Part shown: positions 30,532-48,292 of the stretch, piece after piece
Layout: each line of letters starts with the position of its first letter
Position numbering within the stretch: position 1 is the stretch's first letter
Assembly (NCBI GenBank): GCA_043815445.1
Contig: JBDRIY010000054.1
Coordinates: 527 to 64,526 of the forward strand
Origin: Candidatus Omnitrophota bacterium
Lineage (GTDB): Bacteria > Omnitrophota > Gorgyraeia > Duberdicusellales > 4484-171
Direction: 5' to 3'
Length of the DNA: 64,000 nt
Translations under genes and position numbers: made by a program
Notes under the pieces: model-generated
Seen by the model: the letters and a program-made list of their open reading frames with translations, nothing else
Told to the model about the DNA's origin: nothing
Database searches by the model: none

Positions 30532-30813
30532 TTATTTAATCGCCTTTATTTCTTTTAGGTCTTTGAGGAATTTTTTCATTTCTTTTTCAGCTTCTTCTTC
30601 AGTAGTATCAAACTTTTCTAAAACTATTTTTTTGATTGCGGCAAGGCTTTTTTTGCCATCAATTAGCTTCCAAACCTCTGACGCTACCTTATTCAAGGTA
30701 TAAATACAATTTATCTCATCCGAGGTTTTATAAATAGGCATTAAAATAGTTTCATCATCAATTACCCTTGTAACCATATCCGGATTTTTGCGTAAAACTC
30801 CCGCTTTTGCCAT
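30532..30813 (-). CDS. PqqD-family protein (RiPP recognition element-like peptide chaperone)
   Basis: 93 aa. ETILMPIYKTSDEINCIYTLNKVASEVWKLIDGKKSLAAIKKIVLEKFDTTEEEAEKEMKKFLKDLKEIKAI fits the PqqD pattern (LN..a..IW.l.DG...l.eI...l...y ... FL..L). Confidence 0.75.
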   Translation of the reverse strand: MAKAGVLRKNPDMVTRVIDDETILMPIYKTSDEINCIYTLNKVASEVWKLIDGKKSLAAIKKIVLEKFDTTEEEAEKEMKKFLKDLKEIKAIK

Positions 30814-30888
30814 AATTCTACCCTCCTTTTCTAAGCTATCTCTTTGTCATTATCCGGCTTGACCGGATAATCCAGAACCTTTCAATCC

Positions 30889-31857
30889 CTATACTCTCCT
30901 AACAAAATCAATCACTTTTTTATCATTCACAAACCCCATACTATAACAAGGCACCGCGCTGATTAAATCCTGGCAAAAAGATACAATATTTTCTAAACAC
31001 TGCTTATCCCAAAAAGTAGGAAAAAGCGCGGGATATAGTTTGTTAAAGGCTTCCTTTTTAGAAATTTTCTCCACAATATTTTTTTTGGCGTGGCGAATAA
31101 AGAATAATTTTTTCAAAGGCGCTGAATCTATTCGCGAAGTAAGGTAATCGTTAAAATCACCATGCCAGGGAGAACCGTGAATGGAAAAGCCTTTTCTATC
31201 CTTACGCACAATAATACGATCATCATTCAAAACCATTGCCTTTGTATGTTTATGCCAAATTCGGGCTGTAGTGCTTTTCCCAGCTCCGGATTCACCGGCA
31301 AAAACCAAGCCTTGCCCGTTTAAATCCTTTATCCCAATAGCATGGGTAAAAATCCCTTCCCGCCTTTGAGCAAAATAATTTATTAACAATACCTGTAAAA
31401 AATCATAGATAATATCTCCGGTGCTCCAAACAAATCCTTTGTTTTTTTTAAATAACTCCCGATCTTCTTCTCCAAACATATCTTTTTCTTTTTTAGGCAG
31501 AATAAAAGCTTCTATTTTATCAAAACTTTTGTTTACAAACATTATCTGCTTTTTATCTTCAAGAGGGCTTTTATAAATATAACTATCACCTTTTTTAAGC
31601 AAACGCCAGTTTTCGCTTCCATCCTGAAAATGATAAGTAACAAACAGAGGTTTTGCCTTAAAAACTTGAGGTAATTTATCCACTATTTCTATATCAATTA
31701 AGATATCAGTTTTTTTCTTTCCCTGATAAAAAAAATTATCAAACCTTTCTTCTATTTGAAGCTCTTTCTCTATCTTTGTGAATTGCTTAAGAGGAAACCG
31801 GCTTTGCATTTGAATAACTACGTCCGCAATTTTTAATTTAATTGTTGCTTTTTTCAT
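30889..31857 (-). CDS. HPr kinase/phosphorylase-related P-loop kinase (HprK C-terminal-domain-like)
   Basis: GLVFAGESGAGKSTTARIW aligns to the HprK Walker A (GvLitGdSGvGKSetAL). Size and context resemble the HprK-like kinases found in peptide-modification clusters. Confidence 0.65.
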   Translation of the reverse strand: MKKATIKLKIADVVIQMQSRFPLKQFTKIEKELQIEERFDNFFYQGKKKTDILIDIEIVDKLPQVFKAKPLFVTYHFQDGSENWRLLKKGDSYIYKSPLEDKKQIMFVNKSFDKIEAFILPKKEKDMFGEEDRELFKKNKGFVWSTGDIIYDFLQVLLINYFAQRREGIFTHAIGIKDLNGQGLVFAGESGAGKSTTARIWHKHTKAMVLNDDRIIVRKDRKGFSIHGSPWHGDFNDYLTSRIDSAPLKKLFFIRHAKKNIVEKISKKEAFNKLYPALFPTFWDKQCLENIVSFCQDLISAVPCYSMGFVNDKKVIDFVRRV

Positions 31858-31907
31858 TTAATCTCCTAATTTTTTTAATAACGGCCGCAAAATATTGCGG
31901 CTCTACA

Positions 31908-33074
31908 CTATATGAATTCTTTAATACGCTTTTGCGCTGTTTTTGCCAACTCACAAAAATATTCTACTTCCTTATGCATATCTCCTGTCTCAAGATAAGC
32001 TTTGCCCGGGCACAATAAACAAAAATCAATCATATCACAGTTATAACACTTAGAATCCGTCTTGATCTTTACTCCGGCTATATTTTGAAATACAGAAAAC
32101 ATTTTTCTTATATCTTCCGGCTCTGCCTTTAATAAATCTATCCCTGGCTCGCGAATACAAGAACACATAAACATCTTCCCGTAAGGATCAATATTAACCC
32201 CGTCTAAACTGCCTGCCGCGCACCTAAAAAGCCTTTTATCACTAATAGTATTTTTCGTCATTCCTACGCCACTTTCATCATTCCCATATTTTTTGTCATT
32301 CCCGCGTTCCCTTTTGTCATTGCCCGGCTTGACCGGGCAATCCAGAAACATATTAATTCCGCCTTCGTCTTCTTCCACGCTTTGGACTTCAAACAACTTA
32401 TCTAATTCTACAATCTGTTCAGGCTTAAGCCGCAGACTGCACGGCGTGGTATCGCCGTCTAACCCCGCCTGCAATAATAAACCAGGCCTGAATTCCAAAC
32501 CTCTACTCTCCAAAAATTCTTTTATTTTCGGCAATTCTTCTAAATTCTGCTGAGTTGCCATAGTCTTTACTTTTAAGGGCAGATTTCTTTTTAAAATCAT
32601 ATCTAAACCTGCCATTGCCTTTTTATATGAACCTTTAACCCTAGTTATATTTTCATAAGTATTCTTGGTTACACCGTTAATAGTTATTTCAATGGCAAAA
32701 GGAGGCCTTTTTGCTAAATAGTCCGCGGCTTGTTCCGTTAAAGAATATCCTGTAGTAAATATAGTTATCAAAAAACCTTTATCTTTAGCATACTCATATA
32801 TTTCTAAAAAATCGTTTCTTTCTAAAGGGTCTCCGCCGGTAAAACAAAGCCAGATAACACCTAATTTATATATTTTATCAATGATAAGCTTAATCTGTTC
32901 AGTATTTAACTCTTTTTTAATATAAGAAGGCTTATTGTAACAATCACAATAACAATGCCCACAATGCAGGCCGCACTTAAAAGTAAGCTCAAACTGACAA
33001 ACATTCTGCTTACTAATCCGCCAGTTTTTTTTATGAGTATTTAAACTAAAATCCTTATATTGAATTGTCTTCAC
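31908..33074 (-). CDS. radical SAM / SPASM-domain peptide-modifying enzyme (paralog B)
   Basis: CGLHCGHCYC (CxxxCxxC), GGDPL, C-terminal Cys-rich SPASM block (CAAGS...CSCI...CYNC...CLLCPG). Contains a low-complexity insertion. Confidence 0.85.
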   Translation of the reverse strand: MKTIQYKDFSLNTHKKNWRISKQNVCQFELTFKCGLHCGHCYCDCYNKPSYIKKELNTEQIKLIIDKIYKLGVIWLCFTGGDPLERNDFLEIYEYAKDKGFLITIFTTGYSLTEQAADYLAKRPPFAIEITINGVTKNTYENITRVKGSYKKAMAGLDMILKRNLPLKVKTMATQQNLEELPKIKEFLESRGLEFRPGLLLQAGLDGDTTPCSLRLKPEQIVELDKLFEVQSVEEDEGGINMFLDCPVKPGNDKRERGNDKKYGNDESGVGMTKNTISDKRLFRCAAGSLDGVNIDPYGKMFMCSCIREPGIDLLKAEPEDIRKMFSVFQNIAGVKIKTDSKCYNCDMIDFCLLCPGKAYLETGDMHKEVEYFCELAKTAQKRIKEFI

Positions 33075-33075
33075 T

Positions 33076-34179
33076 TTAAACCTTTAATGATAGTGACTCT
33101 GCTTTACGTTTACTTTCCGAATCACAACTTGTAAAATCTTTATTATTAAGCCAAGCCTTAGCAGGGCACCACTTGCAATAATCTTCTAATTCACACTCCG
33201 AACATTGATAATTGTCATCAGGCTTTATATCTTTTACCGCCTTTTTCATCTTATCCCAGGCGCTTCTTAAACCCATTTTCAATATATTATATTTTAAATA
33301 ATCAATCATCAAACACATTTTTAATTCACCAAAAGGCGTAATAGCCGCCTGAGCCTGCCCCACCCCGCATTTAAAAAGACTATTCACGCTGCAAGCCGCA
33401 GGCTGCAGGCTACAGGCTTCTCCCCTTTCTCTTCCCTCTCTCTTGCTCCCTTCCTCATTGCTAACTGCTAATTGATAATTGCTAATTGATAATTCCCCCT
33501 TCTCCGTTCCCCCTTCATCCTTCGTTAACACCCCTCTATACTCAAACGGCTCCCTTGAACCGTCTAATCGCGGCAGAAGCATATCATCTAAACGGTGCAA
33601 CGCGCCTAATGAAGCGGCAAAATCTTGTATCTTTTTTATTTCCTTTTCATTTTCTTTTAAAACACAAGTTTTAAATCCCAAGCTAACCTCATTTTTACGT
33701 AAAAGTTCTATTGCCTTAAATACTTTATCCCTTGAACCGTTTGCTCCGCTAATAAGCTCAAACGCTTTTTTACTCATCCCGGGAATTGTAATATCCACTT
33801 TATTCGGACGCAGGCTCCCGAGTTGAGCCGCGATTTTCGCGTTAATCAAAGAACCATTGGTATAAATAATAATCTCGAAACCGGATTTCTTAGCATAACT
33901 AAGAATTTTTATTATATCCTTCCTCATAAAGGGCTCGCCTCCAGTAAACCCTAAATAAAAACAGCCTAAGTCTTTCAATTGGTCTAAAATAATACATATC
34001 TCTTTTGTCTTAAGCTCTTTTTTCTTATTTTTGTAACTCTGCGGAACATAACAATGCCGGCATTTAAAATTACACTCATAAGTCAACTCAAACATCACCC
34101 GTAAAGGAAAAAGTTTCTCGCGCGCCTGTTTATGCAATTTCGCGTAAAATTCCTGATTAATGTCGGTTTTTATCGCCAT
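33076..34179 (-). CDS. radical SAM / SPASM-domain peptide-modifying enzyme (paralog A)
   Basis: CNFKCRHCY, GGEPF, SPASM Cys block (CGVGQ...CLMI...CSEC...CKWCPA). Ends 2 nt before the paralog B start. Low-complexity insertion at the equivalent position. Confidence 0.85.
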   Translation of the reverse strand: MAIKTDINQEFYAKLHKQAREKLFPLRVMFELTYECNFKCRHCYVPQSYKNKKKELKTKEICIILDQLKDLGCFYLGFTGGEPFMRKDIIKILSYAKKSGFEIIIYTNGSLINAKIAAQLGSLRPNKVDITIPGMSKKAFELISGANGSRDKVFKAIELLRKNEVSLGFKTCVLKENEKEIKKIQDFAASLGALHRLDDMLLPRLDGSREPFEYRGVLTKDEGGTEKGELSISNYQLAVSNEEGSKREGRERGEACSLQPAACSVNSLFKCGVGQAQAAITPFGELKMCLMIDYLKYNILKMGLRSAWDKMKKAVKDIKPDDNYQCSECELEDYCKWCPAKAWLNNKDFTSCDSESKRKAESLSLKV

Positions 34180-35358: not shown

Positions 35359-35382
35359 AAAAACTACTTTTCTCTTGGTTAT

Positions 35383-36114: not shown

Positions 36115-36315
36115 AGCTCACCTCGATTTTGATAATTCAAGCTTCTTTGCTCTACACTGGCTATTATAACATTGGGAATTTGAAAAATGAAGAGGCTATT
36201 ACAATGGCCCCCGAAGCCTGCCCTGATTATTATATCGGGATTCCACAAGGATAATGCTAAAGGATAAACAGATATATTTACGGCAAATAACTGGGTCCTC
36301 TTTCCTCTGGTTTGC

Positions 36316-36434
36316 TTGATTAATATCAGTTTTTATCGCCATTGCCTTCCTAAATCATTCGCGCCTGAAGCGATTATCTAAAATTAGCTTCCCTACCTTA
36401 AGAATGTCTACCACAGAGTCACAAAGACACAAAG
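36316..36434. repeat. duplicated copy of the upstream region + first 8 codons of rSAM paralog A (original at 34154..34272)
   Basis: ~110 nt near-identical. Includes atggcgataaaaactgatattaat (MAIKTDIN), with no downstream continuation. Confidence 0.6.
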
Positions 36435-36460
36435 TAGAAACAAACCCCTGTATCTGTCCG

Positions 36461-36895: not shown

Positions 36896-36922
36896 TTATG
36901 TATTTTCGCGTAAAATTCCTGA

Positions 36923-38068
36923 TTAATGCCGGTTTTCATCGCCATTTTTCTGTTTATTTTCTAACTCTTCATTTAACGCCCGCGCTAATTCGCAATAATA
37001 AGGAACTGGGGCTTCTTCATCGCCTGTTTCTAAATAGGCTCTGGCCGGGCAGTGATAACAAAGCGCGCGTAACTTACAATCCCTGCATTTTGAGTCAGTT
37101 TTAAATTTCTCGCTTAATAATTTAGGAAATGCTTTATAAAACCCTTCCGCGAACGATACTTTCTTTAAATCCACGCTAAACTTATCAGAAAAAGCGCAAA
37201 ACTTAAGCCGGCCATAAGGATTAATAAAAAACTGGCTCATCCAGGCATTACAGCGGTAAAGAAATTGCCTGTCTCTCTCTAAATCAGGAAAATCATTGTC
37301 TAATCCTTTTTGATACTGCTTCCAAATATCAGAATCCTGCTTTTTCGCCTCTATCAATTCTTGGGCAGAAAGCCTATACTGACAAGGAGTTTTATCTCCA
37401 TTAAACCGGGGGTATATCATTGGATCATATTTAAAATAGTATTTATTCTTTGCCGGTTTTCCCAGAAGTTCTTCAGTAAATTCTTTTATCTTACCGACTT
37501 CATTTTTATTCTGCTTAAGACAATTTGTTTTTAGTATTAAGGGGAGTTTTTTCTTTGCTAATAATTTAACAGTTCTCATCACCTTAGAAAAAGAGCCCTG
37601 AACCTGAGTAATCGCTTCATAAGTTCTTTGGGTTATGCCATTTAAGGTAATTTCTATAGAACAAGGCGGGGATTTAACCAGATAAGAAATGATTTCTTTT
37701 GTAAATTTTTGGCCATTGGTAAAAACAGTTATAATAAATCCTTTTTCTTTAGCATAAGCGTATATCTCTAAAAAATCCTTTCTGATTAAAGGGTCTCCGC
37801 CGGTAAGAGCCAGCCAAAGGCATCCTTGCTTGTGAATTTCATCAAGAATTGTCTTCCATTGCTTTGCGGTTAATTCTTCACCCCTATTTTCGCTCCCTTT
37901 GCAGTAGCAGTGGCCGCAGTTCAAATTGCAGCGATAGGTAAGCTCAATATGCGCGCTCCAAGGATAATGTTCTTTCTTGTTTTGCAGTTTATTATAAAAA
38001 CGGCCGGAGTTTTGAACTTTCATATAAAAAGTTTTTCCTTTATAGACAAACTTAATCTGCGCGCCCAA
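36923..38068 (-). CDS. radical SAM / SPASM-domain peptide-modifying enzyme (paralog C), directly downstream of precursor peptide 1
   Basis: CNLNCGHCYC, GGDPL, SPASM Cys block (CNAW...CAFS...CRDC...CYHCPA). No low-complexity insertion. Confidence 0.85.
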   Translation of the reverse strand: MGAQIKFVYKGKTFYMKVQNSGRFYNKLQNKKEHYPWSAHIELTYRCNLNCGHCYCKGSENRGEELTAKQWKTILDEIHKQGCLWLALTGGDPLIRKDFLEIYAYAKEKGFIITVFTNGQKFTKEIISYLVKSPPCSIEITLNGITQRTYEAITQVQGSFSKVMRTVKLLAKKKLPLILKTNCLKQNKNEVGKIKEFTEELLGKPAKNKYYFKYDPMIYPRFNGDKTPCQYRLSAQELIEAKKQDSDIWKQYQKGLDNDFPDLERDRQFLYRCNAWMSQFFINPYGRLKFCAFSDKFSVDLKKVSFAEGFYKAFPKLLSEKFKTDSKCRDCKLRALCYHCPARAYLETGDEEAPVPYYCELARALNEELENKQKNGDENRH

Positions 38069-38116
38069 GAGATTTTACTATTTTCTACTTTAATCGCCCC
38101 TATTTTTAAAAAGAGT

Positions 38117-38326
38117 TTAAGAATTAGCGGATGTCAGCGACCAGTTATTACTGTTCCCTCTATGGCCCTTCCCACTGTAACATATATCGGCCCGTAGAGG
38201 CCAGTTAGTCTCACCCCTAAGCGGGTAGATTTTACCAAGATCCCAACAATCGCACATTAGCACCGCCTGTTCCGCATTAAGTTTTACCCGTGTAATTTCC
38301 GGCTTAAATTTTGGTTTTCTAAGCAT
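38117..38326 (-). CDS. candidate RiPP precursor peptide 1 (69 aa from Met17 of the ORF-track entry)
   Basis: MLRKPKFKPEITRVKLNAEQAVLMCDCWD leader shared with two other peptides. Core has 1 further Cys and ends ...TSANS. AGGAGG lies 7 nt upstream of the ATG. Confidence 0.6.
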   Translation of the reverse strand: MLRKPKFKPEITRVKLNAEQAVLMCDCWDLGKIYPLRGETNWPLRADICYSGKGHRGNSNNWSLTSANS

Positions 38327-38366
38327 TCCCGTGACCTCCTTTCGTTTTTTATTTTTTATAATAAAA

Positions 38367-39965
38367 CTACTCAATTATAAATATCTGAATTGCTTCAAGG
38401 CCGTTAGGGTAATAAATCGTTTTGATTGGGACTTTATGAGAATATTCTTTTTTAAAAGAAACATATTTATAAATAAACAAATCACCCCAATAATCCTGAG
38501 AATGAGATTCCGGCGCCCAAAGAACATAAATTCTTTTTTTTTGTTCTTTTTCGCCTTGAACTAAACGAAAATCATAATATTTATCTATTTTGCCTTTTTC
38601 CCAAAGGTAATAATTAAGGTAAAAATCCGTTGTCATTCTGCTATCTTGAATTATAACATAATCTTTAATGTTATCCAATTGGCTTAAATATTCCCCGGCC
38701 TCTTGACAGCCATAACTATTATGCCGGCACTGGCCTAAATCCAGAGGCGCGGCGTAACAAAACTTTGTCCATTGCACTGCCTCCGTAATTATTAAACTAA
38801 AGCAAAATGTACCCGTAATAATCAAAATGAACGCTTTTGTAAAGCCTTGTTTTTGCAAGCCATAGTTAAATATCTGCGCAATGAACTTAGCAATTAAAAT
38901 TATTATCGGCGGCAAAATAATAAGAGCGTATCTTGGCTGAAAAAAATTCACTCCGCCTAAAACTCCTATCAACCCTAAAATCAGCCAGGTTAAAAGAATT
39001 TTATCCGCTGTTTTCCTTTGAAAAAAAGAAGTAATACAAGAGGTGAATAAAAGAAAAAATGCTATTGGGTGAGCTAATAATGGCGCTTTCAAAGCCTTGC
39101 CGTAAAGCAAAGATGAGCTTTTAAAGTTAAAAAACAACTCTTTAAAGGTAAATAACGTATTATTTTTAATATTTACCCAAATATTAGCAAATAAATTACC
39201 TTTAAAAATGTTTTCCTGATACGCGCGGTAGAAACTTTGCCCGAATTCATCTCCCCTTATCATACTTTTATAGATAAAAGGCAAGCTGAATAAACCCGCG
39301 ATTAATAATAAAATAACAGTTATCTTGGAATTTAAAAGATATCTCGCATCTTTTTTAGCCCATATTAACGATATAAAAAATATAGGGGCAAAAAGGGCCG
39401 CGGACTCATAACTTACTAAAGATTTTTGCATAAAAAAACAAGATAATATAAACCATAGCCCAATCCCTATTTTTTCTTTATTCTCAATTGCTTTAAAAGC
39501 CTTGAACAAACTTAAAAAAATTAAACAGCCGAAAAAAGGAACCCAAATTACCCTGCCCATAATCCGGCTATGAATTAAATGCCAGGGAAGAAAACATAGC
39601 AAAAGTGAAGATATTAGAGCTGTTTTACGGCCATACATACACTTTGCTAATATATACAGCAATACAACTGTCCCCGCCCCTATGATTATCGGCTCAAAGC
39701 GGCAATGAATCATAAAATTGTTTAGGGTAAATACTTCCGGCGAAGATATACGTGAAATCAAAAAAAAACGCAGAGAATAGGGGATAAAAAAAATTATAGG
39801 TATACCTATGATTTCTTTAATTAATTCCGGCCAGATCAGTAAAATCCTTGCCCAATTAGCTTCATCATGATTTACGGGCAACATCTTTATATTATAAAAT
39901 CTTATAATAAACGCGCCGATGAAAATAACAATAATTAATAAAATATCCGGCAGTAATCGCTTCAT
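38367..39965 (-). CDS. GT-C-fold membrane glycosyltransferase (PMT/ArnT-like), paralog 1, 40 nt upstream of peptide 1
   Basis: Multi-TM. First-loop acidic motif NHDEANWAR. PMT_2-like block LLCFLPWHLIHSRIMGRVIWVPFF. ~150 aa C-terminal soluble domain. Start set at MKRLLPDILL by homology to the paralog (ORF-track start 40010). Confidence 0.55.
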   Translation of the reverse strand: MKRLLPDILLIIVIFIGAFIIRFYNIKMLPVNHDEANWARILLIWPELIKEIIGIPIIFFIPYSLRFFLISRISSPEVFTLNNFMIHCRFEPIIIGAGTVVLLYILAKCMYGRKTALISSLLLCFLPWHLIHSRIMGRVIWVPFFGCLIFLSLFKAFKAIENKEKIGIGLWFILSCFFMQKSLVSYESAALFAPIFFISLIWAKKDARYLLNSKITVILLLIAGLFSLPFIYKSMIRGDEFGQSFYRAYQENIFKGNLFANIWVNIKNNTLFTFKELFFNFKSSSLLYGKALKAPLLAHPIAFFLLFTSCITSFFQRKTADKILLTWLILGLIGVLGGVNFFQPRYALIILPPIIILIAKFIAQIFNYGLQKQGFTKAFILIITGTFCFSLIITEAVQWTKFCYAAPLDLGQCRHNSYGCQEAGEYLSQLDNIKDYVIIQDSRMTTDFYLNYYLWEKGKIDKYYDFRLVQGEKEQKKRIYVLWAPESHSQDYWGDLFIYKYVSFKKEYSHKVPIKTIYYPNGLEAIQIFIIE

Positions 39966-40140
39966 TTTTTTATGAAACTTTAACTTTCCCATTTTTCGCG
40001 CAGTCCTCAAAGGGTGCTACATTCTTCAATTATCCAAAATTATAAATTCCTGTTTTTACATAATGGCAGCTATAGGGAAAAATGCCTGTGGACGCCTGTC
40101 AACCGATAAACTATAATTAATGTAGATTACAAAGATTAAA

Positions 40141-41547
40141 CTATTCAATGCTATTCTTATTTCTTCTAAACTTAACTCCGCGAATAATCTTATCTGCCTC
40201 TTTATTAAATAACTTTATTTTTCCTGCTTTTTTGTAACATTTCATAAGAGCAAGGCTAACGCGATTATCATTCAAATTCATTTCTTTTGCTTTTATCAAT
40301 GCTTCTATAGCTTTTTTATAATGCCTTAAAGCCTCATAACAAAGGCCTAAAATTAGATAGGCTTTGCCCCCTTTGTAATTTAATTTGAAAACCCTTCTTA
40401 TATTTTTAATAGCTTCCTTATGTTTATGTAACTTCAAATATGCCTCACCAAGTTTTAAATAAGCTAAAATTTTATTCCCATCATCACAAGCGCTCTTTAA
40501 TTCATTTTTATATATTCTTATGGCTTTTCTTTCATCGCCTTTATCTCTTTTAATCGAATTATTCCTTTTTATTAAGACTGCTTTCTTAAATAATGATTCA
40601 CAATAACCGCAGGTATCGCATTTTAAATTACAATTAAGCATTTTCTTAAAAAAATAATTTTTAACCAGAATATCATAATCTATATATTCAAAATAAGAAA
40701 GGCCCGGACAGTCCAGTATTTCCAAAAGATTACCTCTAAAATGTTTACTAATATAAGCCTTGAGGCATAATTCAATTCTCTTTGTAGAAAAAACTCTCGT
40801 TGATAACTTATAATGATTTACAAATTTATCATAACAATCTAATGCGTCTGGCGGTATAAAAGGTACACGGAATACTTTTAAGGAGTTTTTTAAATATACT
40901 TCAATGCAAAATTTATCAGGAAAAACACCTTCTATGATTTTTCCTCGAGATTTTTCTCTATGTGATAAATAATTATAATGATTAACCCTATAAGGACAGT
41001 TGCCCAAACAACCCTCATTAAGCATTACTCGTATTTGAAGGCCGGTTCTCTTCTTTATCTCTTTTATTAAATTAATACTACGATTTATATCCCTATCAAT
41101 GGTTAATACATCTACGCCTAAATCTTTAAGATATAAGGCATGCTCAACGGTTTTCATATAACAGTTAACGGACGACTCTATTATTATACCGCTAATTTCC
41201 TTTTTGATTTTACTAATATAAATAGGGTTCGTAACTACCACAGAGCTAAGCCCTTTATCTCTCAATCTTTTTACATAATCCAATATATTATTAAAAAAAG
41301 TTCCGCTTAATCCAATAACGCCTTCACAGGTCGCGTTTAATAAAAGCTGTGGCCTGATATTTAAAGTATTACATTTTCTTATAATTTTCGGAATCTGTCT
41401 TGTATATGACTTTGGCTCCTGTTGATCCCTTCCAGAACCCAAATATAGCTGCGGTATAGGAAAATAAAAAGCTTCTATATTATCCTTATATGCGCCAATA
41501 AGGTCTAACATTTTAATATCATAGTTATATCCTATAGAGAATTTCAT
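40141..41547 (-). CDS. peptidase-U32-family protein (collagenase-like TIM barrel, Cys cluster) with C-terminal TPR repeats
   Basis: IEAFYFPIPQLYLGSGR ... VVVTNPIYI ... SVNCYM ... IRVMLNEGCLGNCPYRVNHYNYLS follows the U32 block order. CDTCGYCE, then TPR-like helices. Confidence 0.55.
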   Translation of the reverse strand: MKFSIGYNYDIKMLDLIGAYKDNIEAFYFPIPQLYLGSGRDQQEPKSYTRQIPKIIRKCNTLNIRPQLLLNATCEGVIGLSGTFFNNILDYVKRLRDKGLSSVVVTNPIYISKIKKEISGIIIESSVNCYMKTVEHALYLKDLGVDVLTIDRDINRSINLIKEIKKRTGLQIRVMLNEGCLGNCPYRVNHYNYLSHREKSRGKIIEGVFPDKFCIEVYLKNSLKVFRVPFIPPDALDCYDKFVNHYKLSTRVFSTKRIELCLKAYISKHFRGNLLEILDCPGLSYFEYIDYDILVKNYFFKKMLNCNLKCDTCGYCESLFKKAVLIKRNNSIKRDKGDERKAIRIYKNELKSACDDGNKILAYLKLGEAYLKLHKHKEAIKNIRRVFKLNYKGGKAYLILGLCYEALRHYKKAIEALIKAKEMNLNDNRVSLALMKCYKKAGKIKLFNKEADKIIRGVKFRRNKNSIE

Positions 41548-41565
41548 TATCTTAAAATTAATAAA

Positions 41566-41790
41566 TTATGAATTTGAACATCTAGCAGTGCAGTTCTCTT
41601 GGGTAGGTCCAGGCACAGATCTGCAGTATCCGCTTCCCTTTGACGTACAAATCTTCTCCATCCCATCGACAGTACGGAGAGCACCGCCGTCAAGCCAGCC
41701 ATCATCGTAACAGTCACAACTTAATACTGCTTGTTCAATATTAAGTTTTACTTTTGTTATTTCCAGCTTAAATTTTAGTTTTTTAGGCAT
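41566..41790 (-). CDS. candidate RiPP precursor peptide 2
   Basis: MPKKLKFKLEITKVKLNIEQAVLSCDCYD leader. Core has 4 further Cys and ends CSNS. AGGAGGTG RBS. Confidence 0.6.
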   Translation of the reverse strand: MPKKLKFKLEITKVKLNIEQAVLSCDCYDDGWLDGGALRTVDGMEKICTSKGSGYCRSVPGPTQENCTARCSNS

Positions 41791-42048
41791 TTCTCACCTC
41801 CTTGTAATAGAATCACACTACTTTGTTAAAGACTCAAAACATATCCCTTTAAACCTTAAATTCTATAAAACTCAAAATGAATTCCCTTGAGGTAAATATG
41901 ATTTAAAATTTAGATCTAAGCTTAATTTTGCTAAAAAACTTGTTGATGAAATATAACATAAGGTGTCAGCTTTTCTTATCAGCACAATTAGATTAGATAT
42001 TCTAAATCCTAAAAAAATAAATCTCCAAATCGATAAATACAAAAGAGT

Positions 42049-42255
42049 TTAAGATGTGTGACAAGATGAATCGCACTGCGTCCTCCTCGTCATCGTACGA
42101 GTAGCCGGATCGCACACCATTAAATTTGGCAGTCTCGCACGATGTGAACTTCCCTCCCTGCCACTCCATTGGTAACAACCGCAATATAACACTGCCTGCT
42201 CCACTTTGAGTTTTATCTGTATAATTTCCGGCTTAAATTTTAGCTTTCTAAACAC
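42049..42255 (-). CDS. candidate RiPP precursor peptide 3
   Basis: MFRKLKFKPEIIQIKLKVEQAVLYCGCYQW leader. Core has 3 further Cys and ends SCHTS. GGGAGGT RBS. Confidence 0.6.
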   Translation of the reverse strand: MFRKLKFKPEIIQIKLKVEQAVLYCGCYQWSGREGSSHRARLPNLMVCDPATRTMTRRTQCDSSCHTS

Positions 42256-42289
42256 TTCTTACCTCCCTTTTTAAACCTCTACTATTTAT

Positions 42290-43894
42290 TTATCTAAGTA
42301 TAAATATCTGAATTGCCTCAAGCCTATTGGGGTAATAAATAGTTTTGATTGGCCTTTCATCTGGATATTCTTTTTTAAAAAAATTAAACTGCCGAGCAAA
42401 TAAACCGCCCCAATAATCCTGATGATGAGATTCCGGGGCCCAAAGAACATAAATTCTTTTTTTTTGTTCTTTTTCGCCTTGAACTAAACGAAAATAATAA
42501 TATTTATCTATTTTTCCTTTTTCCCAAAGGTAATAATTAAGGTAAAAATCCGTTGTCATTCTGCTATCTTGAATTATAACATAATCTTTAATATCATCCA
42601 ACTGGCTTAAATACTCCGCGGCCTGTTGACAGCCATAACTGTTATGCCGGCACTGATTTAAATCCAAAGACGCGGCATAACAAAATCTTGTCCATTGCGT
42701 CATCTCAGTAACGATTAAACTAAAACAAAGCGCGCCCGCGGTAATCAGGATAAACGCTCTCCTAATTCCTTGTTTTTGGAAACTATAACTAAACATTTGA
42801 GAAATAAATTTAGCGACAATAATTACCATCGGCGGTAAAATAATAAGGACGTATCTTGGTTGGAAAAAACTCACTCCGCTTAGAACTCCCGCAAACCCTA
42901 AAATCAGCCAAATTAAAAGAAGCTTATCCGCTGTTTTCCTTTGGAAAAAAGAAATAATACAAGATACAGTTAGAAGAAAAAATACTATCGGGTGCGCCAG
43001 TAAAGGAGCTTTTAATGCCCGGCCGTAAAGCAAAGATGAACTTTTAAAGTTAAAGAATAAATCTTTGAAGGCAAAGGCAGTATTATTTGTAATATTTGCC
43101 CAAATGTTAGCGAATAGGTTGCTTGTAAAGATATTCACCTGATACCCGCGGTAAAAGTCTCTCCAAAATTTATCTCCTATTGTTATAATTTTATAAATAA
43201 AAGGCAGGATAAATAAAGAAACAATTAGCAATAATGCAATGCCTGTTTTGGGGCTTAAAAAGCTTTTTCTTTCTCCCATAATCCAAAATAATGACACAAA
43301 AAGTATCGGAATAAAAATAATCGCGGATTCATAGCTTGTCAAAGACCCTTGCAGAGAAAAACAAGATAGCAAAAACCATAATCCGGCCCATATTTTTTCT
43401 TTATTCTTGATTGCCTGCAAGGCTTTAAATAAACTTAAAAAAATCAAACAGCCAAAAAAGGGAATCCAGATCACCCTGCCCATAGTCCTGCTATGAATTA
43501 AATGCCAAGGAAGAAAGCATAATAAAAGTGAAGATATAAGGGCTGTTGGACGGCCATACATATATCTTGCCAATATATATAACAATACAACTGTGGCCGC
43601 CCCTATGATTATTGGTTCAAAACGGCAATGGACTATAAAGTTATTTAGGGTAAATGTTTCCGGCACAGATACGCGCAGAGCTAAAAAAACCCGTAAAAAA
43701 TAAGGTAGAAAGGGAAAGGAAATTACAGGAATACCTATAATTTCCTTAATAAATTCCGGCCTTTTCAGCAAAAACCTTGCCCAATTCGCTTCATCATGAT
43801 TTATAGGTAGTATTTCTATATTGTAAAATCTTATAATAAACGCGCCGATAAAAATACTAGTAATTAATAAAATATCCGGCAGCGATCGCTTCAT
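42290..43894 (-). CDS. GT-C-fold membrane glycosyltransferase (PMT/ArnT-like), paralog 2, 34 nt upstream of peptide 3
   Basis: ~75-80% identical to paralog 1 by eye. Same NHDEANWAR and PWHLIHSR blocks. Confidence 0.55.
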   Translation of the reverse strand: MKRSLPDILLITSIFIGAFIIRFYNIEILPINHDEANWARFLLKRPEFIKEIIGIPVISFPFLPYFLRVFLALRVSVPETFTLNNFIVHCRFEPIIIGAATVVLLYILARYMYGRPTALISSLLLCFLPWHLIHSRTMGRVIWIPFFGCLIFLSLFKALQAIKNKEKIWAGLWFLLSCFSLQGSLTSYESAIIFIPILFVSLFWIMGERKSFLSPKTGIALLLIVSLFILPFIYKIITIGDKFWRDFYRGYQVNIFTSNLFANIWANITNNTAFAFKDLFFNFKSSSLLYGRALKAPLLAHPIVFFLLTVSCIISFFQRKTADKLLLIWLILGFAGVLSGVSFFQPRYVLIILPPMVIIVAKFISQMFSYSFQKQGIRRAFILITAGALCFSLIVTEMTQWTRFCYAASLDLNQCRHNSYGCQQAAEYLSQLDDIKDYVIIQDSRMTTDFYLNYYLWEKGKIDKYYYFRLVQGEKEQKKRIYVLWAPESHHQDYWGGLFARQFNFFKKEYPDERPIKTIYYPNRLEAIQIFILR

Positions 43895-43984
43895 TTTGAA
43901 AAGTTTTTCTCTTTTTTGCTAGTTAAAACACGTTAGGTATATATCCTGGACTTTTTCATTGACCTTATTTACATTCTTATGATA

Positions 43985-44158
43985 TAATCTCTTTATGCCA
44001 AATATATTATGGACTGTTTCTTCAAAGTTTGGTAAATCTATTAGGTTAACTTCGAAAGTTTGGTTTGAAAAAATTCTTTTAGAGCATCCTGAATTCTCTA
44101 TTTTACCTGAATATTCAGATGAATTACGAAAAACCAGGGAAGTAAAATGGCGCAAATA
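43985..44158 (+). CDS. small ORF (57 aa), possible toxin partner of the DUF2283-like gene
   Basis: Found by hand, not in the ORF track. MPNILWTVSSKFGKSIRLTSKVWFEKILLEHPEF... Overlaps the downstream ATG by 11 nt (AAATGGCGCAAATAA). Confidence 0.3.
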
Positions 44159-44362
44159 AATATTGTAAAAAGAACTAAGCTGAATTATGACTCGGAAAGC
44201 GATGTGCTTTATATTAATTTTGATCAGCCTCAATCTGCTGATGACAGCGATATCACTGACGAAGGAGTAATTATTCGCCTCAGGGAAAATAAAATTGTCG
44301 GGCTGACTATTCTTAATGCCGCTAAGGCGCTGGTAAGTCATCCTAAACATAAACACTCCTAA
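44147..44362 (+). CDS. DUF2283-like small protein (putative antitoxin-type partner)
   Basis: 71 aa. KLNYDSESDVLYINFDQP...EGVIIRLRENKIVGLTILNA matches the DUF2283 pattern (Y D xxx D xLYI). Confidence 0.5.
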   Translation: MAQINIVKRTKLNYDSESDVLYINFDQPQSADDSDITDEGVIIRLRENKIVGLTILNAAKALVSHPKHKHS

Positions 44363-45843
44363 CTCGCGCTAAACCGGGGATATAAAATTCTCAACTTTTC
44401 CTCTATAATCATCATTTTCTTCTCAATTTTATACAACCCCCTATCTCTTCCATTTTTCTTCTGCCGCAGTCTTTTTGTTTTCAAAAATCCTTTTTTAAAT
44501 TCCTGATATCTATCGCTTATATATTGAATAAGCTCAAATTTGTTTTTAAGATATGGCAAAACCTTGAAAAGCCGCGATAGAACTTCTAGATTACTATAGC
44601 CTGTTCTAATAGCATCCTTATAAAAACCAGCGGCATCATCATATTTTTCTTCATACTCAAAGACGTGGCCTAAAAAATAATAGCTTTGCGCTTGTAAAGG
44701 TTCCAAAGCGCAGTATCGCAGTAACAATTTCTTGGCCTTATTAAAATTTTTTAAATTAAACTCTGTTTTTGCCAGTCCAAACATACTTTCTTTTTGGGCC
44801 TTACTAAATAAACTATCTTTTGTTAAATTTAAAGGTAAAGAAAAATATTTTTTTGCTTTTTTGAAATCTTTTCTTTCTAAAGCAATATTACCTACGCCCC
44901 ATAGTGAGGCTGGATTTTTAGGGTCAACCCGCAATATTTTCAAGAATTCCTTTTCAGCAAGGATAAACTTTCTTAAGGATAAATAAAGCGGGCCGTAATT
45001 ATTATCTTCCGCCCTATAACCGGAATTTATTTCTACTGCTTTACGATAATACTCTTTCTTTCCTGTGGAATAAAAAAGGTTAAAATATTCAGCGGCCTTA
45101 GTATTAATCGAATATCTTTTTTTAAACTTCTCGGGAAAAAAATAATAAGCGATTTCATCCCCTAAATGTTTATATTTCATTGGGGTATAACCGCCATTTA
45201 CTGAATAAGCAATGGTAGTAACTACAGGCCGCCGGACTTTGTCTTTAAGGATATTTACCAATTCCTGAGGTAGAATCCAAGGCCGCCTTTTGCCTATTTT
45301 TATGGTATTATTCGCGTTTAAAAGGCTGTCCACAACTAAAAAATCCGTATCGATGTCCAATAGAATAGGCTGTTCTAAGAATGGTAATTTATCCAACACA
45401 CAAACAATAAACTTTCTTCCTAAAATTTCAGCTGACGCCCAACCGTCTTTTACTATGAGAGATTTTTTATTCTCTTTTTTTATGAAATTTTTGAGGCTAT
45501 TCTTAACAATTTTTAAGGACATTTTAAATTCCTTTAATTCGCCGGGGATAACCCAATAAAAATTCTTAACAATACCTTCTTGAATTGCTGGATAAATATA
45601 ATTTCCGATATTAGTTTGCTTATCAAAGTTTTTTTCATAACGTGTAAAAGCAAGGCTGTATTCTAAATTTCTTTTTAACTCCCGCAAACTTTTTGCCTGG
45701 CTAAATACCTCTTTTATTGGTTTTGCTGGACAAAAACCAAAGTCCATATGAGCGTCAATGTGCACTAAATCAAGGTTTTTAACCCCTCTTTTCCGCCATA
45801 CCGCTAATGCTTGATCGTGATCTTCAATAATATTAATATCCAC
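44359..45843 (-). CDS. protein with arginase/deacetylase-fold-like N-domain (LVHIDAHMDFG) and C-terminal TPR repeats
   Basis: D-A-H-x-D metal-site-like motif. TPR-like helices in the last 200 aa. Confidence 0.35.
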   Translation of the reverse strand: MDINIIEDHDQALAVWRKRGVKNLDLVHIDAHMDFGFCPAKPIKEVFSQAKSLRELKRNLEYSLAFTRYEKNFDKQTNIGNYIYPAIQEGIVKNFYWVIPGELKEFKMSLKIVKNSLKNFIKKENKKSLIVKDGWASAEILGRKFIVCVLDKLPFLEQPILLDIDTDFLVVDSLLNANNTIKIGKRRPWILPQELVNILKDKVRRPVVTTIAYSVNGGYTPMKYKHLGDEIAYYFFPEKFKKRYSINTKAAEYFNLFYSTGKKEYYRKAVEINSGYRAEDNNYGPLYLSLRKFILAEKEFLKILRVDPKNPASLWGVGNIALERKDFKKAKKYFSLPLNLTKDSLFSKAQKESMFGLAKTEFNLKNFNKAKKLLLRYCALEPLQAQSYYFLGHVFEYEEKYDDAAGFYKDAIRTGYSNLEVLSRLFKVLPYLKNKFELIQYISDRYQEFKKGFLKTKRLRQKKNGRDRGLYKIEKKMMIIEEKLRILYPRFSAS

Positions 45844-46706: not shown

Positions 46707-48292
46707 TCAGTGTATAAAAAATTTATATATTTTAGCTCCTGAACTAACTAAAGGAGCAATTATGCTAATAAACCGGTTAATAAGCCTTGTCTTAACGCTC
46801 TCAAAACTAATTATTTTTTTATTTTTTATAATACCCATAACCTTACCTAAAAACATTTCCTCAGGGACAAGCTGAGCCGCTGATATAGAATTATCTCCAC
46901 GAATATAAAACAACTGTTTATTGCCTTGTTTACTTTTTTTACCAGGCGGTGGCAAACCTTTTGATTATCTTCCTGATATAAAATAATATCTCCTATTTTC
47001 AAACTTTCAGGCAAAATCTTTTTAATTATAAGCTTTTGACCTTGTTTTATGAACGGCCACATACTAAAGCCAGATGTTTCGAAAAAGGATAAATCATTGT
47101 CTAAATCTTTTTCTTTAGCTTTAAACGCTTTAACATTGGCTGTGAACGAGCTTATTACTTTAAAAAACATATAAAATAGGCGGCTTTTATAGAAAAAGTT
47201 AGCTTTTCGGCTATAAGCGTTAAGGCCGTAATAATTAGCAAATTGTTCCTGAGGAATGTTTAAAATATAATTTGCCGGCTCTTTAAACGTATCGTATAAC
47301 AAAAAATGCGATTTAAGATAAAGTTTTTTACGTTGAGTTTGCGCGTCCGGTAAAAAAGTGTATTTTTCTATAAAATTTTGAATTAATTTCTTTTTATATT
47401 TAGAAACATTCAATTCTTTCATCAAACGCTGATAAAAATTCAGGCCGCTAAGAAATTCTACCTGATAAAGAATAAAAAATAAAGCTGAGCAAAGCTCATA
47501 TTTCTTGCTGACATTTAGACAGTATTCCCAATCAAAAGTTTTTTCATACTTATTCAATAATAACGCGGCATCATAAACGTTTTTTAAGGATAATACCTTA
47601 CCAAATCTTCGCGCGTGCAAGGCTAAGCTAAAAAGAGTATCTTCCGGCGAAAGTAGTTTTATCGCCCTGCCTTCTCTATTAACTTCTCGAACCCTGTCCC
47701 AAATTTCCGGCAATATCGCCCTGCCTTTTCGCTTAAAATCAATACCCCAGTGAAGTTCAGTAACACATAATTTATTTTCTTTTTTAAAAACAAAAGTAAT
47801 ATGGCACTGATCTTGTTTCCAATATTCTTCAGTAAAACCGCCTAACTGTTTCTTATACCCTGCATCATATAATATTGACGCCCCCTTTTCAACATCCCCC
47901 TCTTTAACCAAAAAATCTATATCCGTCATCAGCCGCAAAGGCATCCGGATATATATATCCTCAAGCAATGCCGCGCCTTTAAGAGGTAAAAGCATAACTT
48001 CTGCCTGCTCAAAAGCAGTTAATATCCGCAAAAACTCCTGCCGGATACCTTGACAACGAACCAAAGCGCAATAATGGTTATTTTTCAAAAACTCTATTAA
48101 ATCCAAAGGCAACAACGAGCTAAAATCCTTAACTAAAGAATAAACAAAAGGCGTTAATTCATGATAATTAATAAACTCTTTAAATCTTTCCCAATTGATA
48201 GATTGAGAGTTCAATAATGTTTCAATATTATCTTCTTCTACACCAACTAATTTTCTGACAACAGCTTTAATAAACTCTATTTCAGGAATCAT
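46707..48292 (-). pseudogene. PF14907-type nucleotidyltransferase fused to an S24/S26-like peptidase domain, split by a frameshift in an A7/T7 run (~46932..46938)
   Basis: N-terminus LLPLKGAALLEDIYIRMPLRLMTDIDFLV (NTP_transf_5-like). The C-terminus of the 481-aa ORF has GFSMWPF ... IGDIILY ... CHRLVKKV. The overlapping 82-aa ORF continues YIRGDNSISAAQLVPEEMFLGKV (signal-peptidase boxes D and E). Confidence 0.5.

What the first reader, a model, noticed from the sequence alone, without database searches (positions are those of the whole stretch)
40141..41547. U32-family enzyme with TPR repeats directly downstream of precursor peptides 3 and 2
U32 proteins (RlhA, TrhP, UbiU/UbiV) are Fe-S-dependent, O2-independent hydroxylases of RNA or quinone substrates. 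This one is fused to C-terminal TPR repeats and begins 18 nt after peptide 2. This raises the possibility of a U32-type hydroxylase acting on a peptide.
Basis: partly seen in the sequence, partly recalled or inferred. Interest (0 to 1): 0.55.

Follow-up and report, generated by a model that had tools for sequence, protein, structure and literature searches.

The report
Peptide-cluster U32-like iron-sulfur enzyme with TPR
This gene encodes a divergent member of the "U32" iron-sulfur enzyme family fused to a protein-docking (TPR) domain, and it and its relatives sit again and again inside gene clusters that modify small ribosomal peptides, so it is probably the first U32-type enzyme that works on a peptide rather than on RNA or a quinone; its chemistry is untested.

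Summary
ORF 40141..41547 (-) encodes a 468-aa protein, a U32-like TIM barrel (aa 1-330) followed by three TPR repeats. It starts 18 nt after a 74-aa precursor-peptide gene. The window comes from a Candidatus Omnitrophota MAG.

The protein belongs to a small, divergent U32-like clade. It is not TrhP, RlhA, UbiU or UbiV, because it matches no NCBIfam U32 model. Its cysteine pattern differs from the canonical one: C74...C180-x3-C184-x29-C214, plus an extra C306-x3-C310-x2-C313-x2-C316.

About 15 of 19 TPR-fused homolog loci lie beside radical-SAM/PqqD peptide-maturation genes, and often beside the same leader family (KPKFKPEITRVKLNPEQAVLxCxC). TPR-less relatives sit next to radical-SAM genes in Margulisbacteria, Gracilibacteria and Nanohaloarchaeota.

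Within the leader family the gene is accessory, present in only 2 of 26 loci.

Best reading: an optional RiPP tailoring enzyme that performs O2-independent Fe-S oxidation of the peptide, most likely hydroxylation of an aromatic side chain. The pathway membership is well supported by comparative genomics. The chemistry is inferred only. No paper in the library links U32 enzymes to RiPPs.

The parts
40558..41547 (-). U32-like (beta/alpha)8 barrel, aa 1-330 of the 468-aa protein
   Evidence: Pfam PF01136 is marginal. hhalign to E. coli U32s gives 94.4% probability. The AF2 model has pLDDT 90.2. The best PDB fold match is 5d88, a U32 protein. The domain has 1357 cluster representatives at E<=1e-3 among 1.84e9.
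40906..41010 (-). Cys/His motif C180-x3-C184...H190...H196...C214, the presumed Fe-S ligands at the end of barrel strand 7. C74 (nt 41326-41328) is the candidate fourth ligand.
   Evidence: Conservation across 106 diverse clade members: C180 100%, C184 99%, H190 95%, H196 87%, C214 97%, C74 84%. C180 and C184 align with UbiU C169 and C176, and C214 with the last canonical Cys.
40600..40632 (-). Clade-specific C306-x3-C310-x2-C313-x2-C316 motif after the barrel; a second metal or Fe-S site (inferred)
   Evidence: 97-99% conserved across 106 clade members. Absent from UbiU, UbiV, RlhA and TrhP in the alignment.
40141..40542 (-). C-terminal TPR domain (aa 336-468): three TPR motifs plus a capping helix, including the stop codon
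   Evidence: Pfam TPR_1/2/8. PDB hits to consensus TPR proteins and MamA. Helices 336-467 in the AF2 model.
41566..41790 (-). Precursor peptide 2 (74 aa), ending 18 nt upstream of the enzyme and in the same frame
42049..42255 (-). Precursor peptide 3 (68 aa)
38117..38326 (-). Precursor peptide 1 (69 aa counted from MLRKPKF...)
36923..38068 (-). Radical SAM/SPASM maturase, a core enzyme of the peptide family
   Evidence: Pfam Radical_SAM and SPASM. Orthologs are present in 20 of 26 leader loci.
38367..40010 (-). PMT_2-like (GT-C) membrane protein, paralog a, directly downstream of the U32-TPR gene
42290..43894 (-). PMT_2-like (GT-C) membrane protein, paralog b, upstream of peptides 3 and 2
44359..45843 (-). 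Peptide-arginase-like (UPF0489/FlmR_OhkR_N) domain fused to TPRs; a second TPR-fused accessory enzyme
   Evidence: Pfam PF12640 and TPR. NCBIfam NF052474 scores 48.6 bits, below the cut-off of 350. Orthologs lie beside the leader family in 6 of 26 loci.
46847..48292 (-). NTP_transf_5 protein, a frequent core neighbour of the peptide family
   Evidence: present in 13 of 26 leader loci.
30532..34179 (-). Remaining core genes: PqqD (30532-30813), conserved 322-aa protein of unknown function (30889-31857), and two radical SAM genes (31908-33074, 33076-34179)
28609..30375 (-). ABC transporter (fused membrane and ATPase domains), the probable exporter and cluster boundary

Best explanation
The 468-aa protein is an optional (accessory) tailoring enzyme of a large, uncharacterised radical-SAM/PqqD-dependent RiPP family of Omnitrophota. 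Members of that family have the leader KPKFKPEITRVKLNPEQAVL, then CxC followed by an aromatic residue, then a hypervariable core ending in Ser or Thr.

Its N-terminal U32-type TIM barrel carries one Fe-S cluster at the mouth of the barrel (C180, C184, C214, perhaps C74) and a second four-Cys metal site (C306-C316). It carries out an O2-independent two-electron oxidation of a side chain in the core peptide. The most likely reaction is C-H hydroxylation (+16 Da) of an electron-rich aromatic residue (Trp, Tyr or His). This would parallel the ring hydroxylations attributed to UbiU/V, TrhP and RlhA, possibly with prephenate as the oxygen donor.

The C-terminal TPR domain recruits the enzyme to the precursor or to the maturation complex.

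Shown: gene anatomy, fold, conserved residues, and recurrent co-location with precursor and maturase genes. Inferred: that the peptides are the substrate, that the Cys residues bind Fe-S, the type of reaction, and the role of the TPR.
For: (1) Fold and family. hhalign to E. coli U32s gives 94.4% probability, and Foldseek's top hit is 5d88, a U32 protein. Catalytic-face motifs are shared with canonical U32s: R40, N71 (= LNT), K247..R251 (= KIEGR), and C180/C184 (= UbiU C169/C176).

(2) Cys conservation. Seven to eight Cys are conserved at 84-100% across 106 clade members.

(3) Context in the window. The gene starts 18 nt after peptide 2, inside a run of precursor genes, a rSAM/SPASM gene, an arginase-TPR gene, PqqD and an ABC exporter.

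(4) Context elsewhere, TPR-fused homologs. They are operonic with rSAM/SPASM, PqqD, YcaO-TPR, arginase-TPR and NTP_transf_5 genes in L003/L015, L004, L012/L143, L013, L014/L141, L018, L019, L020, L023, L024, L127, L130 and L142. That is about 15 of 19 distinct loci. Same-family leaders are adjacent in the window, L003, L014/L141, L127 and L130.

(5) Context elsewhere, TPR-less relatives. Margulisbacteria have three B12-rSAM genes, a rSAM/SPASM gene and two 53-aa peptides. Gracilibacteria have 5-10 rSAM genes within 10 kb. All nine Nanohaloarchaeota loci have two rSAM genes, HxsD and a precursor ending in CWxWSWCWCWSWGWGW. These aromatic-rich cores fit a ring-oxidising enzyme.

(6) Other U32s. 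Separate, bona fide PF01136 U32 paralogs also occur in the sister clusters.

(7) Shared TPR module. In L004 a YcaO-TPR and the U32-TPR share a TPR module that is 71% identical over 112 aa, as expected for a common docking module.

(8) Known U32 chemistry. It is O2-independent hydroxylation of aromatic rings, with prephenate as the O donor (10.1101/587956; PMC10990095; PMC11574389).
Against: - No U32 enzyme has yet been shown to hydroxylate in vitro (PMC10990095, PMC11574389), so the chemistry is an analogy with an incompletely understood family.
- The canonical CX6CX15CX3/4C motif is not conserved. Here it is CX3C-x29-C, and the third canonical Cys is missing.
- Only 2 of 26 leader-family loci of at least 6 kb carry the gene, so most peptides of the family mature without it.
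- Three homolog loci (L001/L002, L016, L017) show no peptide-maturation genes within 8-10 kb.
- The TPR domain is only 34-51% identical among loci whose leaders are nearly identical. This is little better than expected from catalytic-domain divergence.
- A more distant subclade (23-28% identity, Desulfobacterota) sits next to LuxR/CofD or AIR-synthase-like genes, not next to peptides.
- I could not read model coordinates, so the spatial clustering of the Cys residues is unverified.
Confidence: 0.5

Rival explanations
1. It is an Fe-S redox or scaffolding partner of the neighbouring radical-SAM maturases. It could act as an electron conduit, or as an oxidase that completes a radical-SAM-initiated reaction such as a cross-link or dehydrogenation. 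It does not install oxygen itself.
For: In most loci the gene is directly adjacent to, and often overlaps, a radical-SAM gene: L013, L019, L012/L143, L014/L141, L020, L142 and the Gracilibacteria arrays. Two conserved Cys motifs could form an electron-transfer chain. The TPR suggests protein-protein docking, and it is not leader-specific by conservation.
Against: The substrate-face residues shared with catalytic U32s are conserved (R40, N71, S126, K247, R251), which suggests an active site rather than a mere wire. In this window its immediate neighbours are peptide genes and PMT_2 genes, not a rSAM gene.
Confidence: 0.2
2. It is a peptidase, as the historical family name 'U32 peptidase/collagenase' suggests. 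It would remove the leader or trim the peptide, with the TPR holding the substrate.
For: No obvious leader protease is encoded in the core cluster. The family was first defined by a reported collagenase (MEROPS U32; established knowledge). The review PMC11574389 still allows for putative peptidases within U32.
Against: A leader protease should be near-universal in the family, but the gene is present in only 2 of 26 leader loci. Seven to eight conserved Cys in Fe-S-like spacing point to redox chemistry. All genetically characterised U32s are hydroxylation factors (10.1101/587956, PMC6599085, PMC10990095).
Confidence: 0.1
3. The substrate is not the peptide. The enzyme would modify RNA, a quinone or cofactor, or the lipid-linked sugar used by the flanking PMT_2-like glycosyltransferases, and its position beside the precursors is incidental.
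For: Homologs L001/L002, L016 and L017 lie among housekeeping genes. The distant subclade is not peptide-linked. In the window the gene is flanked by two GT-C-like genes, and PMT_2 genes were seen only in U32-TPR loci (window, L004, L018, L141) and in none of 24 leader loci that lack it.
Against: Co-location with rSAM/PqqD/precursor genes recurs in about 15 of 19 TPR-fused loci and in four other phyla. There is no match to any TrhP, RlhA, UbiU or UbiV model.
Confidence: 0.15

Closest known systems
UbiU/UbiV, TrhP (YegQ) and RlhA (YdcP): the Fe-S 'U32 oxidases' of E. coli
   Same: They share the (beta/alpha)8 U32 barrel. The first two Cys ligand positions after strand 7 are shared (C180/C184 = UbiU C169/C176). 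So are a later Cys, the KxxxR (KIEGR) motif and the LN(T/A) motif. Like them, it comes from an anaerobic organism.
   Different: Sequence similarity is too low for any NCBIfam U32 model, and Pfam is at threshold. Spacing is CX3C instead of CX6C, and the third canonical Cys is lacking. There is an extra Cx3Cx2Cx2C motif and a C-terminal TPR domain. The genomic partners are precursor peptides and radical-SAM maturases, not RNA or quinone pathway genes.
Mk0906 of Methanopyrus kandleri (PDB 5d88), the only solved U32 structure
   Same: It is the best structural match (Foldseek E 2e-9, TM 0.72 on the target) and a sequence relative of the same broad clade.
   Different: Mk0906 lacks the Cys motif: 'GAITFRDP' aligns with 'NEGCLKDCP'. 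It has no TPR domain, and its function is unknown.
Leader-dependent RiPP tailoring enzymes with fused recognition domains, for example RRE/PqqD-fused maturases and the characterised peptide arginases OspR/FlmR/OhkR
   Same: It is an accessory enzyme encoded beside hypervariable precursors that share a conserved leader. It co-occurs with an arginase-like enzyme and with YcaO enzymes.
   Different: The fused module is a TPR, not an RRE. The paper that characterises FlmR and OhkR does not mention TPR (PMC12703449). No U32 enzyme is described in RiPP biosynthesis in the searched literature.
HXS (HxsA-D) radical-SAM maturation system, an antiphage system in bacteria (PMC13128918)
   Same: TPR-less relatives of this protein are invariably next to HxsD-like genes and two rSAM genes in Nanohaloarchaeota.
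   Different: More than 99.8% of bacterial HXS systems have four components, and the paper mentions no U32. The archaeal precursor has Trp-x repeats instead of His-x-Ser repeats. The window's cluster has no HxsD.

Membership tests
Peptidase_U32 superfamily (Pfam PF01136 / IPR001539) | Match to the family HMM above the curated cut-off | tested here: inconclusive
   22.2 bits against a gathering score of 22.4, covering aa 87-174 only. Many homologs carry a precomputed PF01136 hit.
Peptidase_U32 superfamily (Pfam PF01136 / IPR001539) | U32-type (beta/alpha)8 barrel fold | tested here: met
   AF2 model with pLDDT 90.2. Best PDB match is 5d88, E 2e-9, TM 0.72 on the target. hhalign to UbiU/UbiV/RlhA/TrhP gives probability 94.4%.
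Fe-S 'U32 oxidases' | Four conserved Cys in the pattern CX6CX15CX3/4C (UbiU C169/C176/C193/C232; UbiV C39/C180/C193/C197) | tested here: not met
   The pattern here is C180-x3-C184-x29-C214. The third canonical Cys is absent, and C74 (84% conserved) is a possible substitute. Three of the four canonical positions are occupied, so a variant site is plausible but unproven.
Fe-S 'U32 oxidases' | Binds a [4Fe-4S] cluster; activity depends on prephenate | not testable with these tools
   Needs protein chemistry (UV-vis, EPR, Fe/S analysis) and aro-pathway genetics or 18O-shikimate labelling.
TrhP / RlhA / UbiU / UbiV equivalogs | Score above the curated cut-off of the NCBIfam equivalog model | tested here: not met
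   No hit at E<=0.1 for aa 1-330. The controls pass: E. coli TrhP 875 bits (cut-off 534), UbiU 560 (440), UbiV 363 (275).
RiPP tailoring enzyme (generic) | Encoded beside precursor peptides and maturases, with the association conserved across genomes | tested here: met
   Window. About 15 of 19 TPR-fused loci. TPR-less relatives in four other phyla.
RiPP tailoring enzyme (generic) | Recognises the leader and modifies the core peptide | not testable with these tools
TPR conservation gives no leader-specific signal. Co-expression with mass spectrometry and binding assays are needed.
Radical SAM superfamily (considered because of C306-x3-C310-x2-C313) | CX3CX2C after strand 1 of the barrel and a match to PF04055 | tested here: not met
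   No PF04055 hit for this protein. The motif lies after the barrel, at aa 306-316, and a fourth Cys (C316) is equally conserved.
TPR repeat proteins | Tandem 34-residue helix-turn-helix repeats | tested here: met
   TPR_1, TPR_2 and TPR_8 above cut-off. PDB consensus-TPR and MamA hits. Seven helices at 336-467.

The most novel reading that the evidence does not exclude
This clade is the first family of peptide-modifying U32 enzymes. They would be O2-independent, Fe-S-dependent and possibly prephenate-dependent hydroxylases (or oxidative cross-linkers) of Trp, Tyr or His side chains, working alongside radical-SAM maturases in anaerobic, mostly uncultured lineages (Omnitrophota, CPR, DPANN). 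In Omnitrophota they would be recruited through a swappable TPR module that is shared with YcaO and arginase tailoring enzymes.
Probability: 0.33. Interest if true: 0.8.

Novelty: new variant of a known kind. Interest (0 to 1): 0.62.

Why it matters
U32 proteins are a very large family whose chemistry, oxygen insertion without O2, is only beginning to be understood. It is known only for RNA bases and quinone rings, and no in vitro assay exists. A U32 enzyme with a small, genetically encoded and easily expressed peptide substrate would give the field a tractable assay. It would also show how strict anaerobes hydroxylate or oxidise peptide side chains, which in known RiPP pathways is done by O2-dependent enzymes. 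In addition, it flags a large unexplored RiPP family (at least 220 precursor genes in metagenomes) and a TPR-based recruitment module for tailoring enzymes.

Tried and rejected
- Spatial clustering of the conserved Cys: I could not check it, because model coordinates are not exposed.
- TPR co-variation with the leader: there is no clear signal. TPR identity is 40% for same-leader pairs and 32% for other pairs, while catalytic-domain identity is 64% and 58%.
- TPR of the window's arginase-TPR against the TPR of the U32-TPR: no similarity, unlike the YcaO-TPR/U32-TPR pair in L004.
- Promoter and terminator scan of 36800-46800: nothing above the shuffled expectation.
- PADLOC: no known defence system, only generic rSAM similarity to viperins.
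- NCBIfam and Pfam on the three precursors: no family.
- Radical SAM reading of the C-terminal CX3CX2C: rejected (no PF04055 hit, wrong position).
- Identity with Mk0906: rejected. It is a Cys-less, more distant relative.
- Literature: four searches for U32 together with RiPP or precursor-peptide terms found nothing relevant.
Full report
**1. What is there**

The minus-strand ORF 40141..41547 (ATG start, 468 aa) is real. An identical protein is deposited as a hypothetical protein of a Candidatus Omnitrophota MAG.

Its start codon lies 18 nt after the TAA of a 74-aa ORF, 41566..41790. The two ORFs are in the same reading frame, separated only by that stop and six codons.

Two further small ORFs share the N-terminal leader K(P/L)KFK(P/L)EIxxxKLxxEQAVLxCxC. 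They are 42049..42255 and 38117..38326, the latter counted from MLRKPKF.

**2. Domain assignment**

- Pfam finds clear TPR repeats (aa ~336-445). Its match to Peptidase_U32 is only at threshold: 22.2 bits against a cut-off of 22.4, over aa 87-174.
- A 43-sequence family alignment (A1) aligns to E. coli UbiU, UbiV, RlhA and TrhP with hhalign probability 94.4%, E 8.8e-8, over query 25-176.
- The sequence also matches PDB 5d88 at E 6.7e-6.
- The AlphaFold2 model is confident (pLDDT 90.2, pTM 0.87). It shows eight strands alternating with helices up to about residue 250, then a helical extension, then seven TPR helices at 336-467.
- Its best solved-structure match is the U32 protein Mk0906 (5d88; Foldseek E 2e-9, TM 0.72 on the target).

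The protein is therefore a U32-type barrel fused to three TPR motifs plus a capping helix.

**3. Which U32?**

The catalytic domain alone matches no NCBIfam U32 model at E<=0.1. In the same run, E. coli TrhP, UbiU and UbiV scored above their curated cut-offs. It is therefore not a member of the tRNA, rRNA or quinone hydroxylase subfamilies.

An exhaustive search of 1.84 billion cluster representatives with aa 1-330 found only 1357 proteins at E<=1e-3, 789 at <=1e-10 and 56 at <=1e-30. This is a small, separate clade.

Mk0906 is a more distant, Cys-less relative of the clade.

**4. Cysteines**

Conservation in 106 diverse clade members (A3):

| Residue | Conservation |
|---|---|
| C180 | 100% |
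| C184 | 99% |
| C214 | 97% |
| C74 | 84% |
| H190 | 95% |
| H196 | 87% |
| C306, C310, C313, C316 | 97-99% |

C59 and C129 are conserved only in the close subclade.

In a mixed alignment with canonical U32s:
- C180 and C184 fall on UbiU C169 and C176, with spacing CX3C instead of CX6C.
- C214 falls on the last canonical Cys.
- The third canonical Cys has no counterpart.
- The canonical KIEGR, LNT and upstream Arg positions are kept as K247..R251, N71 and R40.

The ligand assignments for UbiU and UbiV and the general CX6CX15CX3/4C motif come from Pelosi et al. (10.1101/587956).

So a variant Fe-S site is plausible: three canonical positions plus C74, which sits just after strand 3. A second four-Cys site is specific to the clade. 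That site is not a radical-SAM motif, because there is no PF04055 hit and it lies after the barrel. I could not measure distances in the model.

**5. Genomic context in the window**

The genes on the minus strand, in order:

| Coordinates | Gene |
|---|---|
| 46847-48292 | NTP_transf_5 |
| 45993-46661 | 222-aa MptE-like protein |
| 44359-45843 | arginase-like + TPR |
| 43919-44356 | 145-aa ORF |
| 42290-43894 | PMT_2-like b |
| 42049-42255 | peptide 3 |
| 41566-41790 | peptide 2 |
| 40141-41547 | U32-TPR |
| 38367-40010 | PMT_2-like a |
| 38117-38326 | peptide 1 |
| 36923-38068 | rSAM/SPASM |
| 36461-36895 | PDDEXK_3 |
| 34309-36114 | DUF6577/AbiEii pair |
| 31908-34179 | two rSAM genes |
| 30889-31857 | conserved 322-aa protein |
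| 30532-30813 | PqqD |
| 28609-30375 | ABC transporter |

**6. Is the association conserved?**

*Starting from the enzyme.* Contexts were obtained for 19 distinct TPR-fused loci. About 15 carry rSAM/SPASM, PqqD, YcaO-TPR, arginase-TPR or NTP_transf_5 genes, usually in the same operon and often overlapping the U32-TPR gene. Examples:
- L013: PqqD, rSAM/SPASM, U32-TPR.
- L019: rSAM/SPASM, U32-TPR, PqqD.
- L012/L143: rSAM-ScmC, U32-TPR, rSAM/SPASM, PqqD, two YcaO-TPR genes.
- L003/L130: arginase-TPR, PqqD, peptide, rSAM/SPASM, U32-TPR, then several rSAM genes and other U32 genes.
- L141: five same-family peptides.

Three loci show none of these genes (L001/L002, L016, L017), and L021 is ambiguous.

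*TPR-less relatives.*
- Margulisbacteria: next to three B12-rSAM genes, a rSAM/SPASM gene and two 53-aa peptides.
- Gracilibacteria (read with genetic code 25): inside arrays of 5-10 rSAM genes.
- Bathyarchaeia and Dehalococcoidales: next to B12-rSAM genes.
- Nanohaloarchaeota, all nine loci: between two rSAM genes and an HxsD-like gene, with a ~100-aa precursor ending in ...NHCWNWSWCWCWSWGWGW....
- A more distant Desulfobacterota subclade (23-28% identity) is not peptide-linked.

*Starting from the leader.* At least 220 metagenomic stretches encode the leader. Of these, 78 loci and 96 distinct peptides were retrieved. In the 26 loci of at least 6 kb, the counts are:

| Gene | Loci out of 26 |
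|---|---|
| rSAM/SPASM | 20 |
| PqqD | 14 |
| second rSAM | 14 |
| 322-aa protein | 14 |
| NTP_transf_5 | 13 |
| third rSAM | 10 |
| arginase-TPR | 6 |
| U32-TPR | 2 |
| other U32 | about 4 |

The U32-TPR is therefore an optional tailoring gene of this family, not part of its core.

**7. The TPR domain**

In L004 the YcaO-TPR and the U32-TPR share a C-terminal TPR module that is 71% identical over 112 aa, although their catalytic domains are unrelated. This argues for a common docking function.

In the window, the TPRs of the arginase-like protein and the U32 protein are not similar.

Across loci with nearly identical leaders, the TPR is only 34-51% identical, while the catalytic domain is 57-71% identical. 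Direct leader binding is therefore not demonstrated. The paper that characterises the peptide arginases FlmR and OhkR does not mention TPR (PMC12703449).

**8. Mechanism proposed**

Genetically characterised U32 proteins are required for O2-independent hydroxylation of aromatic or heteroaromatic rings: UbiU/V act on ubiquinone precursors, TrhP on U34 of tRNA, and RlhA on C2501 of 23S rRNA. Prephenate is the oxygen donor, and the Fe-S clusters are essential. No in vitro activity has yet been shown (10.1101/587956; PMC6599085; PMC10990095; PMC11574389).

By analogy, three observations suggest an O2-independent oxidation, most probably hydroxylation, of an aromatic side chain of the precursor:
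- the conserved barrel-face residues;
- the position immediately after the CxC motif, which is Tyr or Trp in six of the seven aligned precursors and mostly Tyr, Trp or Phe across the wider family;
- the Trp-repeat cores next to the archaeal relatives.

Pathway membership is well supported. I put the probability that the enzyme acts in the peptide pathway at about 0.8. The specific reaction is inferred, at about 0.35 for hydroxylation.

The rivals are a redox partner of the rSAM enzymes, a peptidase, and a non-peptide substrate. They are listed with the tests that would separate them.

**9. Novelty**

No paper in the searched library connects U32 enzymes with RiPPs or precursor peptides. The bacterial HXS paper does not mention U32.

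The finding is a new variant of a known kind: a known enzyme superfamily with a new substrate class, a new Cys architecture and a new fusion partner. The evidence is comparative and structural-predictive only.

Noticed in passing
window 41548-41568 (minus strand): Peptide 2 and the U32-TPR ORF are in the same reading frame, separated by a single TAA plus six codons (…CSNS*FINFKIMKFS…). No good Shine-Dalgarno sequence precedes the enzyme's ATG, whereas both peptide genes have GGAGG. This may be a 1-in-3 coincidence, or it may reflect coupled or read-through expression.
   Followed up: partly
window 38117-38326, 41566-41790, 42049-42255; loci L063-L140: The leader KPKFKPEITRVKLNPEQAVLxCxC[YWF] defines a large uncharacterised RiPP family. 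There are at least 220 metagenomic hits and 96 distinct peptides, with a hypervariable core that almost always ends in Ser or Thr. The conserved gene set is PqqD, rSAM/SPASM, rSAM, a 322-aa protein, rSAM and NTP_transf_5. No Pfam or NCBIfam model matches the peptides.
   Followed up: partly
window 38367-40010 and 42290-43894; L004 3244-4836; L018 7002-8498; L141 4323-5954: PMT_2-like (GT-C fold) membrane proteins, duplicated in the window with near-identical C-termini, occur in four U32-TPR loci. They occur in none of the 24 leader-family loci without U32-TPR. This may mean the two accessory functions are linked, for example hydroxylation followed by glycosylation.
   Followed up: partly
L004 5277-7223 (-) and 8001-9413 (+): A YcaO-TPR and the U32-TPR of the same cluster share a C-terminal TPR module that is 71% identical over 112 aa and nearly identical over the last ~75 aa. 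This suggests module exchange or gene conversion between unrelated tailoring enzymes.
   Followed up: yes
L010 7598-7909 (-) and homologs in L025-L030: Nanohaloarchaeota Hxs-like loci (two rSAM genes, HxsD and a U32-like gene) encode ~100-aa precursors with a hydrophobic segment and a C-terminal Trp-x repeat (…NHCWNWSWCWCWSWGWGW…). This replaces the His-x-Ser repeats of the bacterial HXS antiphage effector.
   Followed up: partly
L003 10458-12220 and 15057-17395; L004 9783-11688; L141 15386-17315 and 20517-21605: Sister clusters carry additional, bona fide PF01136 U32 genes (74-106 bits). Each is paired with a conserved 240-300-aa protein without a Pfam family, one of which has a faint 4Fe-4S ferredoxin signal. 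The pairing is reminiscent of the UbiU-UbiV heterodimer.
   Followed up: partly
window 34309-36895 (minus strand): An AbiEii-like nucleotidyltransferase toxin, a DUF6577 partner and a PDDEXK_3 nuclease gene are inserted between the rSAM/SPASM gene and the remaining core maturase genes. They split the peptide cluster.
   Followed up: no
L038 9011-11980; L035-L041: Gracilibacteria (genetic code 25) carry one to three tandem TPR-less copies of the U32-like gene inside arrays of up to ten radical-SAM genes.
   Followed up: partly
window 15837-19430 (minus strand): The ribonucleotide reductase large subunit is interrupted by an intein with a LAGLIDADG homing-endonuclease domain.
   Followed up: no
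window 53926-63947 (minus strand): A second block contains two B12-binding rSAM genes, a rSAM/SPASM gene, another rSAM gene, a GT2, a methyltransferase and an asparagine synthase. The leader HMM found no precursor there, and its purpose is unknown.
   Followed up: no
window 30889-31857 (minus strand): The conserved 322-aa core protein of the peptide family has no Pfam, PADLOC or significant PDB match. Its only hits are faint and non-significant, to HPr-kinase-like P-loop regions (E 0.6).
   Followed up: partly
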